Positions 3,506-6,500 of a stretch of 27,715 bases of DNA are shown piece after piece (position 1 is the stretch's first letter; the number at the start of each line of letters is the position of its first letter). A program made the position numbers. Source of the stretch: Thermoplasmata archaeon (GTDB lineage: Archaea; Thermoplasmatota; SW-10-69-26; JACQPN01; JAJPHT01); contig JAXDQU010000055.1 in the NCBI GenBank assembly GCA_034667685.1, positions 1 through 27,715 on the forward strand. The letters run 5' to 3'.

Positions 3506-6500
3506 GAAGCCGTAGATCTCGCCCTTCTGGACCGAGAGCGTCACGTCGTCCACCGCGCGCACGCCGCGGTACGTCTTCACGAGCCCCTGCGTCTCCAGGA
3601 TGCCGGCCACGCGCGGGCAGCCGGCTGACCCGTCATGAAGGCTTGCGCGCGGTCGTGGAATGACGCGTGCGGCGACCTCCGGAGAGGGTTGAAGGCAGGT
3701 TGCGGTCTCCTCCTTGCCGTGGCCGACGTTCCGGTGGCGATCCTCGACGCGGCGCTGGCCTCCGGCGTTACGCTGCTCGCTTCCGCCGTCGCCTTCCGCG
3801 TGCTCGTGGAACGGCGGCTCACGCGGCTGGAGCGCGACGCCGAGACGCATCCGTCGCGGGAATTGCACGACCGCCTCCGAAAGGTCGAAGAAGAGTTACG
3901 CGTCTTGGAGCCCGTGCAGGACATGGTGCGCGTTCACGGGACGTCCGGAGCGCAGCGCGCGTTCGGCGGGGTGAAGCAAGATGAAGATGACGGCTGACCA
4001 ATTCCAGCGCCTCCAGTACCTGCTGGGCAAGCGCGTCGTCACGCACGTGCTGACCTCCGCGGAAGAGATCGAGGTCCGCGCGCTCGTGGCCTGCGAGGAT
4101 CCGGAGCTCGCGCGGCGCGAGTTCGACCGCGTCGTGGACTACGGCCTGATCGTGATCGGCGCGCAGCTCCTCTCTCGCAAGCTGGCGTCCCTGGCCTGAT
4201 CAGTTGACGGCCTGCGGCGGCAGGTCCACCGGGAAGGGGTGGACGAGGGCGGCGGCGGGCTTGGCCGGGTGGCGCTCGTGGTACGAGGCCGAGATGCGCC
4301 AGTAGTCGGCGAGGAAGCCTTCGAGACGCTCGCGCTCCGCCGCGTCGAGGCCCGGCTCGGCCAGGCGCCCGCGCATGGCGAGCAGCACGAACTCGAATCC
4401 GCTCATGAACGCGTCGAGGTACGCCTCGGACGACAAGGCCGCCGTTTCCACGCGAAGCCCAGCACGGGAGGGCGCTATCACCCATCGCCCGTCACCGGCG
4501 CGGGCGACCGCCGGCCTGTCACCGCTCCCACGAGGACCTGTTGTCCCCCTCGGGGAGGGCAAGATCGGGCTTCGTTCGCCCGCGCCGCGCGAACGCTGCA
4601 ACCGCGAGGCTGCACCCCGCGAGCCCCACGAGGACCGCCGCGCCGACCCACGCGAGGTCGCCCACGGGCACACCCGCGCCGCCCGGTCCTGTGGCGGCAG
4701 TCAGGACGACGGCTTCGTAGCGCAGCCAGCGCACGTCGAGGCGATAGTGCCGGCCCATGACGCCCGAGGCCGCGTGCAGGCTGACGCGCCACGCCCCCTC
4801 GCCGCCGTGCGTCTGCGCGAGGGCGAGCCGCGCTTCGAGCTGCGAAGCGGGCACGACGTCGCTCTCGGGCACGGGCGGGAGCCCGGCCGCGTCGAGGCGG
4901 AGCGGCGCGTGCGTCCCCTCCACGGATCCTCCGCGGACGCCTGGGGGCGGCTCGACGGAGAGCGAGAGCGACGAGGCGCCCAGCGCCGGCGCGTCCCAGT
5001 CGAGCACGAACGACGCGCCCGTGAGGTTGGGCGCGAGCATCGGGATCTCGTGGACGACCGTGCGGCCCGGCGCGACGTCGCCCTCGTAGAGCGCCTCCTC
5101 CTCGCGCATGGCGAAGGCGAGCCGCGACGCGCCCCGCGCCGCCACCGTGGGCGCCACCAGGAGGACGACGAGGACGGCGGCGAGCGCGCGCATGCGAAGG
5201 GATGGGCGAAGCGGCGAGGAAGAAAGGAAGCGTGAGCGGACGAGGGGCGGTTCGGCCCTGCGGCTGGCTGGAGCATCGAGCGGCTTAAGCATCCGTCCCG
5301 CGAAGAAGCACCGGATGGTCGGGACGCTCGCGCTCAGCGGCGCGCTCAACCTCGTCGCGGCGTGCGCGTTCGTCGGCACCGCGGCATGGTTCCTCGCGGG
5401 CCTGCGCCACGGCCTCGACGCTGCCGCGCGGGGCGCCGCCCGCAGCTTCGCGCTCTGGTGGGCCGGCCTGGGCGCGTTCACCGCGATCCAGGGCGCGCAG
5501 GACCTCCTGGGCGCCGCGGGCGTCACGCCGCTCCCGCTCTTCGTCGCGTTCCGCTACGCGAGCCTGACGATCTTCCTCGTCGCGATCTACGGCCTGATGG
5601 ACTACACGCTCTACGTCCGCACGGGCCGCACGCGCCACCGTCCCGTCGTCGCGGCGTACCTCGCGCTCGCCGGCCTCGCGGTGATGGCCCTGCTCGCCGA
5701 GAACCCGCCCGTCGGCGTCGACCTCATGCCCTGGTGGACCGACGTGGCCTTCCCGCGCACCCCCGCGCCCGCGCTGCTGGGCGCGATCCTCGCGGCGTTC
5801 TCGCTCCCCGAGATCGTCGCGTGCCTCAGCCAGCTCCTTCTCGCGCGCCGCCTGGAGGCGAGCCCCGCGCGCACGCGCATCCTCGTGGTCTTCGGCGCGC
5901 TCCTCGTCTACGCCCTCGCGACCGCCGGCTCGCGCTACTCGGGCAGCAGCTTCGCGCAGCTCGTCCTCCGCCCCGGCCTGGGCCTCGTCGTCGCGTTGCT
6001 CGTGGTCCTCGCCTACCGGCCGCGCGCGCCCCGCGCCGCGTTCCGGCTCACGCCCACCCGCGCCGCGCTCGAGGCCCGCGTGCGCGAGCTGGTCTGACTC
6101 GGCGAGCTCGCCCAGAACCCGTTCCATTTCAGCTTCTGCGGGGTTCCTCTTGTCAGCTTGTGCGGGCGCTTCGCTTTCCGCCATCACGCCAAGACGCCAA
6201 CACGCCGCGTGTTGGCGTCTTGGCGTGATGGCGGAAAGCGAAGCGCCACGCGGAAGATGAAAAGAAAAACCGCGCAGCAAAGGAGGAGGCTATGAAACAG
6301 GTTCCAGTCATGCTCGTCCAACCCGACCGGGTCTGGTCGTGCCCGTGCCGAGGAGCATCGCGAAGCGGTGGCGCGCCAGCAGGCCGAGGTCGTCTTCGGC
6401 CGCGGGGCGAAGCGTGTCGCGGGGCACGCGGCCGCATCGCGATCCCGGCGCTTGGACCCGCGCCGTGAAAGAGGCAACGTCCACGTTGCCCACTCCGCCG

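What a model noticed while it worked through the whole genome (the two positions that open the first line are those of the whole stretch)
6165..6247. Seven or more families of intergenic palindromes whose arms are tandem 6-9-mers, turning over between congeners
Beyond F1, the genome holds at least six further families of long perfect-stem hairpins. The example given is F3, with ACGCCAAN units. In every family the arms are tandem oligomers. The families differ in where they sit: F3 lies at 3' ends of genes, F2 and F5 in divergent (promoter-side) spacers. A congener has different families of the same build, and mostly no hairpin at orthologous sites.
Evidence so far: - 182 hairpins (score >=22), 176 of them intergenic, against 0 in a shuffled genome. 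- Clusters of 35, 28, 27, 21, 20, 20 and 15 members. - F3 lies in 11 convergent and 1 divergent spacers, F2 in 2 and 12 (Fisher p=0.0002), and F5 in 0 and 7. - A 365-kb sample of G003 has its own families. - Of 6 hairpin-bearing spacers of C21:39875-59874, G003 has none at 5 and its own type at 1. - The F3 21-mer has 0 matches in the JGI metagenome contigs. F7, F3 and F6 have no plasmid match.
(Added by a program. Inside this text positions count along the whole contig: contig position 1 is position 1 of the stretch shown here. "Call 12" and the like, gene names such as g00115 and contig names such as C1 are that model's own, and its searches are not shown. The text may have been shortened before it was handed on; [...] marks where a part breaks off. 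The agent that wrote the report below was given it as the finding of a first reader that could run no searches.)

Follow-up and report, generated by a model that had tools for sequence, protein, structure and literature searches.

The report
Foldback repeat families in a soil archaeon
The hairpin is the core of a small non-coding mobile element, one of about 250 palindromic repeats in more than a dozen families that have multiplied between the genes of one uncultured soil archaeon, with no enzyme in sight that could move them.

Summary
Confirmed. Window 6165-6247 has perfect 41-nt arms and a 1-nt loop. The genome is a 71% GC Thermoplasmatota-like archaeon. It holds 252 long palindromes against 0 in a Markov-3 control. 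Five are inside genes, and they form at least 13 families. Arms are periodic at family-specific lags of 6-9 nt in most families.

It has 11-nt terminal inverted repeats and a duplicated CCAG; other copies have CTAG. CTAG is 12-fold depleted, and 40% of copies are TAG stop codons. That explains the bias of family F3 towards 3' ends and convergent spacers.

Core-less copies of the MITE exist, and families nest at each other's centres. The two arms change together.

Density is 113 per Mb against 0-18 per Mb in four congeners. F3, the MITE and the GGGCTCN family were found only in this genome. One superfamily is shared with G003.

No matching transposase was found. Verdict: a new variant of MITE/REP-like repeats, with the mobiliser unknown.

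The parts
6112..6115 (.). Left copy of the duplicated target, CCAG (CTAG in most other copies)
   Evidence: the same 4 nt lie directly outside both ends of the element.
6116..6126 (+). Left terminal inverted repeat (11 nt, diverged copy)
   Evidence: pairs it with the right end. One search shows the same end motif at many copies, and one search counts 22 such ends in G000.
6127..6164 (+). Left inner flank, relatively T-rich. It pairs imperfectly with the right flank.
   Evidence: row C55_6206. In the fold the whole 188 nt forms one hairpin.
6165..6205 (+). Left arm of the F3 palindrome: 17-nt outer part plus three ACGCCAAN-type octamers
6206..6206 (.). Single unpaired centre base
6207..6247 (+). 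Right arm, exact reverse complement of the left arm
   Evidence: 100% complementary.
6248..6292 (-). Right inner flank ('flank A'). Read on the minus strand it carries a T-run just before the hairpin.
   Evidence: Window 6246-6307, which spans this flank, has 17 places in G000 and 0 in 30 relatives.
6293..6303 (-). Right terminal inverted repeat (11 nt)
   Evidence: G000:C55:6286-6307, 1 mismatch to the end pattern.
6304..6307 (.). Right copy of the duplicated target, CCAG
27661..27715 (.). Second F3 copy, cut by the contig end. A diverged element end follows directly on the TAG stop codon (27586-27588) of the Pelota-like gene.
   Evidence: The closest relative's locus L118 has no hairpin there and a TGA stop.
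9828..9897 (.). GGGCTCN/GGACTCN heptamer-family palindrome, no loop, 4 nt after a stop codon
   Evidence: The orthologous spacer in G003 is empty.
10949..11049 (.). Palindrome of the GCCGCCTCCGGCGG/CGAATCAC superfamily, 11-nt loop
   Evidence: The orthologous G003 spacer is 61 nt and empty. The superfamily occurs elsewhere in G003.
1770..1819 (.). Short CACGAAGN-family hairpin between convergent gene calls
   Evidence: (I6) and the gene calls.

Best explanation
What is there.
The 83-nt palindrome is the centre of a 188-nt non-coding foldback element (6116-6303). The element has the anatomy of a MITE: 11-nt terminal inverted repeats, a duplicated 4-nt target (CCAG here, CTAG usually) and many copies.

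It is one of at least 13 families, about 250 copies and 0.67% of the genome. These are non-autonomous palindromic repeats that multiplied in this one archaeal lineage.

Shown.
- The anatomy of the element.
- Its copy number.
- Its exclusion from genes.
- The periodicity of the arms.
- The nesting of families inside each other.
- The joint change of the two arms.
- The restriction to this lineage.

Inferred.
1. Copies arise by insertion, not in place. For the F3-MITE the target is C(T/C)AG. In this 71% GC genome that tetramer survives mainly as the TAG stop codon. The element therefore lands right behind genes and most often between convergent genes, and the duplication keeps the stop codon intact.
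2. Tandem-oligomer cores enter at the symmetry centre of existing palindromes. This gives MITEs with and without a core, and onion-like composites.
3. The two arms are kept alike by copying one arm from the other (intra-strand template switching or repair of the extruded hairpin), or by selection for pairing.
4. The 6-9-nt units arise by slippage. They may serve as arrays of binding sites for whatever protein moves the elements.
5. Effects on transcripts, such as a very stable 3' hairpin or the T-run carried in one flank, are side effects or later co-option.

The enzyme that moves the elements is not identified.
For: Anatomy.
- Perfect arms.
- The whole 188 nt folds as one hairpin: -129.8 kcal/mol, z = -14.9.
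- Paired ends with identical 4-nt flanks occur in the window copy (CCAG/CCAG) and in three other core-bearing copies (CTAG/CTAG).
- 29 of 272 loose end-motif hits are preceded by CTAG, the commonest flank by far.
- There are 22 ends in G000 and 0 for the reversed control pattern.

Target.
- CTAG occurs 768 times where base composition predicts about 9224.
- 306 of the 768 are stop codons of my gene calls.
- Of 36 element ends preceded by TAG, 26 use the stop codon of a gene reading into the element.

Context.
- F3 lies in 14 convergent, 1 divergent and 8 tandem spacers.

Mobility.
- 6 of 8 syntenic spacers are empty in G003.
- L118 is empty behind the Pelota-like gene.
- Window 6246-6307 (flank A with the right end of the element) has 17 places in G000 and 0 in 30 relatives.
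- The 22-nt end pattern has 55 loci in genomes of distant phyla, many per genome, including complete 47-85-nt mini-elements bounded by CTAG. My own estimate of the chance expectation is about 2.

Modularity.
- Core-less copies of the same MITE exist at C8 20414-20549, C106 16811-16941, C50 and C71.
- 15 of 252 palindromes carry units of two families in one arm.

Arms change together.
- Across 19 complete F3 copies there are 16 same-change-in-both-arms positions.
- The permutation mean is 4.4 and the maximum 13; 0 of 5000 permutations reach 16.
- Several of these are singleton variants with perfect stems.

Placement.
- In tandem spacers every family lies next to the upstream stop (median -14 to 52 nt).
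- Every family also lies 50-136 nt (family medians) from the next start. This is as expected if only the promoter-free part of a spacer tolerates insertions.

Burst.
- G000 has 113 per Mb; the congener samples have 0-18 per Mb.
Against: No mobiliser was found in the 99%-complete assembly.
- Y1/RAYT 0, IS630-type DDE_3 0, Harbinger-type DDE_Tnp_4 0 and IS110 0.
- TnpB gives only a sub-threshold hit.
- There is a single DDE_Tnp_1 gene, and it is not flanked by the element's ends.

The six other genomes that carry the same end motif give no consistent answer either.
- DDE_Tnp_1 was found in 1 of 5 searched.
- DDE_3 was found in 0 of 6.
- Y1 was found in 2 of 6.

The duplication cannot be told apart from a 2-nt (TA/CA) duplication inside a C..G context. 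It rests on one non-canonical copy plus canonical copies whose CTAG is often a stop codon anyway.

The largest family (GGGCTCN) shows no conserved flanks and no target duplication. Its mode of spread is not shown.

No filled-versus-empty pair between near-identical strains was obtained. Public contigs break at the hairpin centres.

Of 19 F3 copies, 42 changes are in one arm only, so homogenisation is far from complete.

Different families occupy the same spacer in G000 and G003 more often than their densities predict: 2 of 8, and 2 of 3 from the G003 side. This could equally mean that a hairpin is selected for at those places.

Gene calls are my own.
Confidence: 0.68

Rival explanations
1. The hairpins are primarily functional gene-end elements. 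They would act as transcript 3'-end stabilisers, read-through barriers or insulators between neighbouring transcription units. They would be kept because the cell needs a strong structure at those spacers, and mobility would be only the way they got there.
For: - 98% lie outside genes.
- In tandem spacers they sit directly after the stop codon in all families.
- The stretch between stop and hairpin is T-enriched: 0.216, against 0.151 after all stops.
- One flank of the F3 MITE carries a T-run ahead of the hairpin.
- Stems stay perfect in copies whose flanks have decayed, such as C8 75983.
- The same spacers hold different families in G000 and G003: 2 of 8, and 2 of 3.
Against: - Four congeners manage with 0-18 per Mb against 113, and 6 of 8 orthologous spacers are empty. 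The genes therefore do not need the hairpins.
- The T fraction after the hairpin is at genome level (0.143), so the layout is not that of a hairpin-plus-U-tract terminator.
- From general knowledge, not tested here: archaeal termination relies on oligo-T.
- Many copies lie between divergent promoters: 19 of the GGGCTCN family.
- No RNA data could be found.
Confidence: 0.15
2. The repeats spread without a transposase. Long palindromes extrude as hairpins or cruciforms and are cut at the tip by host nucleases. The break is then repaired by copying from another palindrome with micro-homology. Cores are thus pasted into the symmetry centre of other palindromes, and arms are re-templated from each other. 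Slippage during this synthesis makes the tandem units.
For: - No credible mobiliser is present in this genome.
- Insertions lie exactly at symmetry centres: the MITE with and without its core, and 15 composites among 252.
- The main families have no target duplication.
- Symmetric variants are in excess.
- Unit arrays run on beyond one arm in some copies, for example C12_5042 and the GCCTCA arrays.
Against: - It does not explain colonisation of spacers that hold no palindrome in the relative (6 of 8).
- It does not explain the terminal repeats and duplicated target of the F3 MITE.
- The assembly is a draft in 124 contigs, and transposase copies often fail to assemble.
Confidence: 0.12
3. Assembly or binning artefact: the palindromes are chimeric joins made by the assembler.
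For: - Contigs of this genome and of public runs often end inside the palindromes. 18 palindromes lie within 60 nt of a contig end.
- Contig pieces of run X1 end at 1808/1823, 6194/6234, 9856/9857 and 10992, all inside the window's hairpins. Of the other runs, X2 has a piece starting at 1810 and X3 pieces starting at 1823 and 9885.
Against: - 227 lie inside contigs with ordinary genes on both sides.
- The families have consistent sequences, flanks and contexts.
- A run of another study holds 91% of the sampled words of window 5000-12000.
- Relatives assembled independently carry the same superfamily.
Confidence: 0.02

Closest known systems
Prokaryotic MITEs (non-autonomous derivatives of DDE insertion sequences)
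   Same: - Short and non-coding, with terminal inverted repeats, a short target duplication and many copies. They are intergenic and fold into a long hairpin.
- Reviews report MITEs in Sulfolobus, Halobacterium, Haloquadratum and a few other archaea (PMC10969869, passages read).
- MITEs occur in 20% of archaeal genomes, and 88.9% of archaeal copies are intergenic (PMC11602168, passages read).
- A CTAG target with TA duplication is what I recall for IS630, and a 4-bp duplication at YTAR for IS5. Both are recalled, not tested here.
   Different: - No insertion sequence with the same ends was found, here or in six other genomes that carry the ends.
- The centre is a perfect palindrome of tandem octamers that also occurs apart from the MITE flanks by BLAST. 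Of 55 core places, 38 have no adjacent flank A or B, though some look like decayed copies.
REP / REPIN elements moved by RAYT transposases in bacteria
   Same: Families of intergenic palindromes that are species-specific, are often at gene 3' ends and have compensated stems (PMC3116915 and PMC3733652: search listing and start of abstract only).
   Different: - No Y1/RAYT gene is present.
- I saw no GTAG or CGTC tag at the ends in the rows.
- Stems are two to three times longer and are made of tandem units.
- The host is an archaeon.
Small mobile repeats (SMR) and PATEs of Haloquadratum walsbyi
   Same: - These are archaeal, transposase-free repeats with inverted ends, no target duplication and an unknown mode of movement.
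- They have a strong tendency to insert into other palindrome-bearing elements.
- The paper has a category of sites that hold different repeats in two strains (PMC3119063, passages read).
   Different: - PATEs derive from IS605-type elements, which are not found here.
- The passages I read do not describe tandem-oligomer arms.
- The supplementary tables with the sequences were not opened.
Foldback-type transposons of animals (FB, Galileo)
   Same: - Long inverted arms are built from short tandem sub-repeats with little or nothing between them.
- In Galileo the repeats hold multiple transposase-binding sites (PMC3573991 and PMC3688188: search listing and start of abstract only).
   Different: Those are eukaryotic, kilobase-sized and have known P-superfamily transposases. 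The likeness here is of architecture only.
Insertion sequences that target the loop of REP palindromes (IS1397-type; recalled, not searched)
   Same: Insertion at the centre of an existing palindrome.
   Different: Here the inserted thing is itself a small palindrome, and no such insertion sequence is present.

Membership tests
MITE | Short, non-coding, multi-copy | tested here: met
   The window copy is 188 nt. Complete copies are 131-233 nt. Flank A has 17-19 places.
MITE | Terminal inverted repeats | tested here: met
   11-nt ends are paired in 8 elements. G000 has 22 ends matching the 22-nt pattern, and the reversed control has 0.
MITE | Target-site duplication | tested here: met
   CCAG/CCAG at the window copy; CTAG/CTAG at C33 1639-1841, C33 4431-4636, C106 137619-137851 and C8 20414-20549. 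The length (2 or 4 nt) is not resolved. No empty site from a near-identical strain was obtained.
MITE | An autonomous element with the same ends that supplies the transposase | tested here: not met
   The one DDE_Tnp_1 gene lacks these ends. DDE_3, DDE_Tnp_4, Y1 and IS110 give 0, and TnpB is sub-threshold. This is a draft assembly, so absence is not proven.
REP/REPIN-RAYT | RAYT (Y1 HUH transposase) gene in the genome | tested here: not met
   PF01797: 0 matches; assembly completeness 99%.
REP/REPIN-RAYT | GTAG or CGTC tag at one end of the palindrome | tested here: not met
   Not seen in the flank and end rows. Checked by eye only.
Intrinsic (hairpin plus U-tract) terminator | T-run directly after the stem | tested here: not met
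   The T fraction in the 30 nt after the hairpins is 0.143, equal to the genome value. The T-enrichment lies before the hairpin (0.216).
Any Rfam RNA family | Match at the family's gathering score | tested here: not met
   Only sub-threshold hits to animal microRNA hairpin models, for example 41.8 bits against a gathering score of 67.
Foldback-like architecture (a likeness, not membership) | Arms made of tandem sub-repeats | tested here: met
   Family-specific lags of 6, 7, 8 or 9 nt. Median lag identity is 0.64-0.73 in 10 of 14 families, 0.56 in one and 0.43-0.49 in three.

The most novel reading that the evidence does not exclude
A transposase-free way of spreading DNA. Long palindromes are cut at the hairpin tip, and the break is healed by copying the core of another palindrome. 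Tandem-oligomer 'cores' would then hop from centre to centre and the two arms would be re-templated from each other. This would be a self-propagating structural parasite that needs only host repair enzymes. The cross-phylum CTAG-bounded mini-hairpin would serve as one of its landing pads.
Probability: 0.12. Interest if true: 0.85.

Novelty: new variant of a known kind. Interest (0 to 1): 0.6.

Why it matters
- Uncultured soil Thermoplasmatota are not among the archaea named for MITEs in the review passages I read.
- Four literature searches listed no paper, by title or start of abstract, that describes such palindromes in this phylum.
- About 250 copies in at least 13 families appeared in one species while its congeners stayed nearly free. 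The case therefore gives a natural before-and-after comparison for how small palindromic repeats invade a compact genome.
- A target that coincides with the TAG stop codon shows how an element can insert at gene ends without harm.
- The nesting at symmetry centres, the joint change of the arms and the lack of any mobiliser pose a concrete question: what moves transposase-free palindromes in archaea? The same question was left open for the Haloquadratum small mobile repeats (PMC3119063).
- The 22-nt end motif is shared with Bacillota, Armatimonadota, Planctomycetota, Acidobacteriota and a haloarchaeal MAG, but not with 29 of 30 relatives. This points to horizontal arrival.
- On the practical side, these repeats break short-read assemblies exactly at their centres.

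Tried and rejected
- Earlier findings of the scan were not open.
- RNA evidence: no RNA holder was listed for window 5000-12000.
- I laid four DNA runs (contigs) on window 1-20000 to look for empty sites. Contig pieces stop inside the hairpins and none joins across one, so nothing can be said on presence or absence in other strains.
- Rfam gave only sub-threshold microRNA-model hits, which are generic hairpin matches.
- Identifying the taxon with fumarase failed because the protein is too conserved. The Pelota-like gene worked.
- The single DDE_Tnp_1 gene has no flanking inverted repeats (best score 12) and no element ends.
- Single-linkage clustering merged all families, because composites chain them together. 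I replaced it with average linkage.
- My first arm-versus-arm divergence script crashed after four families. Its partial figures are biased by how copies were chosen, so I did not use them. I replaced them with the position-wise count and a permutation test.
- The BLAST-short arm counts were not used, because tandem units give multiple hits per site.
- Rejected readings: CRISPR (no regular arrays), origin-of-replication boxes, and telomere-resolution sites (dispersed, more than 200 copies).
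Full report
**The example.** Window 6165-6247 consists of two 41-nt arms that are 100% complementary, with one base between them. Each arm has a 17-nt non-periodic outer part and three octamers of the ACGCCAAN kind. The window holds four more such hairpins:
- 1770-1819, with CACGAAGN units;
- 9828-9897, with GGGCTCN/GGACTCN heptamers and no loop;
- 10949-11049;
- a second F3 copy, 27661-27715, cut by the contig end.

**The organism.** The genome is 3.48 Mb in 124 contigs with 71.1% GC. 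It is an archaeon.
- Ribosomal protein L24e is present.
- The window encodes Pelota-like and NFACT proteins.
- The nearest named Pelota relatives are Thermoplasmatota MAGs at 68-78% identity.
- This matters for two reasons. From general knowledge, archaeal transcription termination relies on oligo-T, not on hairpins. And RAYT-driven REP elements are a bacterial theme.

**More than chance.**
- There are 76 non-overlapping perfect stems of >=14 bp, against 1 in a Markov-3 random genome.
- A gapped self-alignment scan gives 252 non-overlapping palindromes at score >=36. The control had nothing at 32 or above.
- With my own codon-based gene calls (3518 genes, 87.8% of the bases), 5 are in genes, 20 lie at contig edges and 227 are intergenic.
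- They cover 23,207 bases, 0.67% of the genome.

**Families and periodicity.** Average-linkage clustering gives families of 48 (GGGCTCN), 29 (F3), 24 (CACAGAGG, often inside long GCCTCA arrays), 24 (CACGAAGN), 23 (GGGAAGAN), 19 (TTCCGN), 11, 10, 10, 8, 7, 7, 6 and 3.
- Arms are periodic. Median best-lag identity is 0.65, against 0.41 in 1366 control intergenic 32-mers.
- Lags are fixed per family at 6, 7, 8 or 9 nt.
- Three families are not clearly periodic.
- Units have a constant 6-7-mer plus one or two variable bases.

- Aligning the flanks of F3 copies shows conserved sequence of about 60 nt outside the arms, in two classes.
- The flanks end in an 11-nt inverted repeat that is directly preceded by CTAG.
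- The window copy runs from 6116 to 6303 and is flanked by CCAG on both sides (6112-6115 and 6304-6307).
- This is a direct repeat of a non-canonical tetramer. That is what a target duplication predicts, and not what a conserved element end predicts.
- Three further core-bearing copies have CTAG/CTAG.
- The whole 188 nt folds into one hairpin from end to end, at -129.8 kcal/mol and z = -14.9.
- Whether 4 nt or only the central 2 nt are duplicated cannot be decided.

**Why F3 lies at 3' ends.**
- CTAG is 12-fold depleted: 768 copies where base composition predicts about 9224.
- 306 of the 768 are stop codons of my gene calls.
- Of 36 element ends preceded by TAG, 26 use the stop codon of a gene reading into the element.
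- CTAG is its own reverse complement, so it can end genes on both strands.
- Spacers with two stop codons (convergent) are therefore the richest in targets, and divergent spacers the poorest.
- F3 is found in 14 convergent, 8 tandem and 1 divergent spacers. The background is 247, 1110 and 556 (p = 9.5e-7 for convergent against divergent).
- The second window copy follows directly on the TAG stop of the Pelota-like gene. The closest relative's locus has a TGA stop and no element there.

**The other families.**
- GGGCTCN and TTCCGN are not significantly different from the spacer background (p = 0.1 and 0.29).
- In tandem spacers every family lies next to the upstream stop. Family medians run from -14 to 52 nt (for example 5 nt for GGGCTCN). 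97 of the 109 tandem-spacer copies summed over the 13 families are nearer the stop.
- Every family also lies 50-136 nt (family medians) from the next start.
- In divergent spacers they sit in the middle, about 50 nt from each start.
- This is the pattern expected if insertions survive only outside the core promoter zone. It is not a promoter-side preference.
- GGGCTCN copies have no conserved flanks and no visible duplication.

**Modular, nested build.**
- The same MITE exists without the palindrome, with flank A joined to flank B, at 131-136 nt. Copies are at C8 20414-20549, C106 16811-16941, C50 and C71.
- F3 cores also occur without recognisable A or B flanks: 38 of 55 BLAST places. Some of these look like decayed MITEs.
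- Families 7, 8 and 12 share outer arms and differ in which unit array, or extra inner palindrome, lies at the centre.
- 15 of 252 palindromes carry units of two families in one arm, for example TTCCGN inside GGGCTCN at C110 6755.
- New material therefore enters at the symmetry centre.

**The arms change together.**
- In 19 complete F3 copies, 16 positions carry the same change in both arms, 42 carry a change in one arm only and 4 differ in both.
- Shuffling right arms among copies gives a mean of 4.4 and a maximum of 13 symmetric positions; 0 of 5000 shuffles reach 16.
- Several symmetric variants are singletons with perfect 38-41-bp stems.
- Shared descent from symmetric masters would inflate this figure. 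The symmetric masters would still need explaining.

**Relatives.**
- F3 DNA has 29 places in G000 (58 strand matches), weak octamer matches in G002, and none in G001, G003 or G004. Elsewhere among the 30 relatives only weak 19-21-nt matches appeared, in G010 and G026.
- Window 6246-6307 (flank A with the right end) has 17 places in G000 and 0 in 30 relatives.
- The 22-nt end pattern has 22 ends in G000, one 1-mismatch hit in G014 and 0 in the other 29.
- GGGCTCN occurs in G000 only, apart from weak hits in two distant genomes.
- The GCCGCCTCCGGCGG/CGAATC superfamily occurs in G000 and also gives 29 strand-matches in G003.
- With one threshold (score >=28), G000 has 113 palindromes per Mb over 1.36 Mb. 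The samples give:
  - G003: 18 per Mb (7 in 400 kb);
  - G001: 16 per Mb (3 in 184 kb);
  - G004: 0 in 129 kb;
  - G002: 18 per Mb (1 in 56 kb).
- The few in the relatives are of the same build, with other or related units.
- So this is a burst in one lineage on top of an older, sparse background. It is not an even turnover.

**Orthologous sites.**
- Of 8 G000 hairpin spacers with synteny in the 400-kb G003 sample, 6 are empty and 2 hold a different type.
- Starting from four G003 copies, two orthologous G000 spacers hold another family, one is empty and one is unresolved.
- By my own estimate from the densities, double occupancy is more frequent than expected. It could mean insertion hot spots, such as an older palindrome serving as target, or selection for a hairpin there.

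**A cross-phylum end motif.**
- The 22-nt end pattern has 55 loci in the species-representative genome collection. My own estimate of the chance expectation is about 2.
- It is many-copy in single MAGs labelled Bacillota, Armatimonadetes, Phycisphaerales, Acidobacteria, Thermodesulfobacteriota and others, and in one Halobacteriales MAG.
- Some are complete 47-85-nt mini-elements bounded by CTAG. None carries tandem-octamer cores.
- The ORFs next to them are unrelated host-like genes (not scanned against Pfam).
- Together with its absence from 29 of 30 relatives, this suggests that the MITE reached G000 horizontally and picked up the F3 core there.

**Who moves them.**
- In G000: Y1/RAYT 0, DDE_3 0, DDE_Tnp_4 0 and IS110 0; TnpB only a sub-threshold hit; one DDE_Tnp_1 gene without the element's ends.
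- In the six other genomes with the end motif: DDE_Tnp_1 in 1 of 5 searched, DDE_3 in 0 of 6, Y1 in 2 of 6.
- The mobiliser is therefore unknown. Draft assemblies often lose insertion sequences, so absence is not proven.

**Function.**
- No Rfam family matches.
- The stretch between stop codon and hairpin is T-enriched (0.216 against 0.151 after all stops). The 30 nt after the hairpin are not (0.143).
- The layout is thus the reverse of a bacterial intrinsic terminator.
- No RNA run was available. Whether the hairpins are transcribed is open.

**Verdict.**
- The best reading is a set of non-autonomous foldback or MITE-like mobile repeats. The given example is a MITE whose CTAG target explains its position.
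- The families are modular, nest at their centres, keep their arms alike and have expanded in one archaeal species.
- The kind is known (MITE, REP, and the Haloquadratum small mobile repeats in PMC3119063).
- New are the tandem-oligomer arms, the centre-nesting, the stop-codon target, the host lineage and the missing mobiliser.

**Limits.**
- Gene calls are my own.
- Family borders depend on the clustering.
- The relatives were sampled, not scanned whole, for generic palindromes.
- No closely related strain pair was available.
- Supplementary tables of the cited papers were not opened.

Noticed in passing
whole genome G000 (window example: 6112-6115, 6304-6307, 27585-27588): The tetranucleotide CTAG is about 12-fold under-represented: 768 copies where base composition predicts about 9224. 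40% of the copies are TAG stop codons of my gene calls.
   Followed up: partly
L218-L272 (genome-contig loci): A 22-nt motif (CTAG plus the element end) recurs many times per genome in high-GC MAGs of several bacterial phyla and one haloarchaeal MAG. It often forms 47-85-nt mini-hairpins bounded by CTAG, with a second related end type beside it. No common transposase was found in six of these genomes.
   Followed up: partly
window 1808-1823, 6194-6234, 9856-9857, 10992: Contig pieces of public run X1 end inside each of the window's hairpins; single pieces of X2 (1810) and X3 (1823, 9885) do so too. In G000, 18 palindromes lie within 60 nt of a contig end. These repeats fragment short-read assemblies, and copy numbers are lower bounds.
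   Followed up: partly
G000 C32 8283-8482, C16 2161-2388, C13 18001-18206, C99 6151: The CACAGAGG hairpins are often flanked on both sides by long inverted arrays of GCCTCA-type hexamers. There are 8-20 units, unequal in number on the two sides, giving foldbacks of 200 nt or more.
   Followed up: no
G000 C10 19557-19653 versus G003 C12 6755-6859; G000 C28 about 41293-41473 versus G003 C29 30084-30178: The same orthologous spacer, at nearly the same point, holds palindromes of different families in the two species.
   Followed up: partly
GGGCTCN family, e.g. G000 C9 39655, C75 14146, C34 3634: A sub-type carries a central insert of about 20 nt that occurs in both orientations relative to the flanks.
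   Followed up: no
window 6308-6690: About 380 nt between the element and the next gene call have no called gene. Short ORFs on both strands are listed there. An ORF that overlaps this stretch and the palindrome (6184-6606, minus strand) has no Pfam match.
   Followed up: no
L081, L118 (public record titles): The record holding the closest relatives of two window proteins is titled 'Proteobacteria bacterium'. Yet it encodes an 88%-identical archaeal-type Pelota-like protein, so the label looks wrong.
   Followed up: no
window 3336-4002: Summed contig depth of all four soil runs jumps about 100-fold here, to roughly 2200-4400 against about 20. This lies inside the ABC-transporter ATPase gene. 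It is presumably a conserved motif shared by many organisms in the metagenomes.
   Followed up: no
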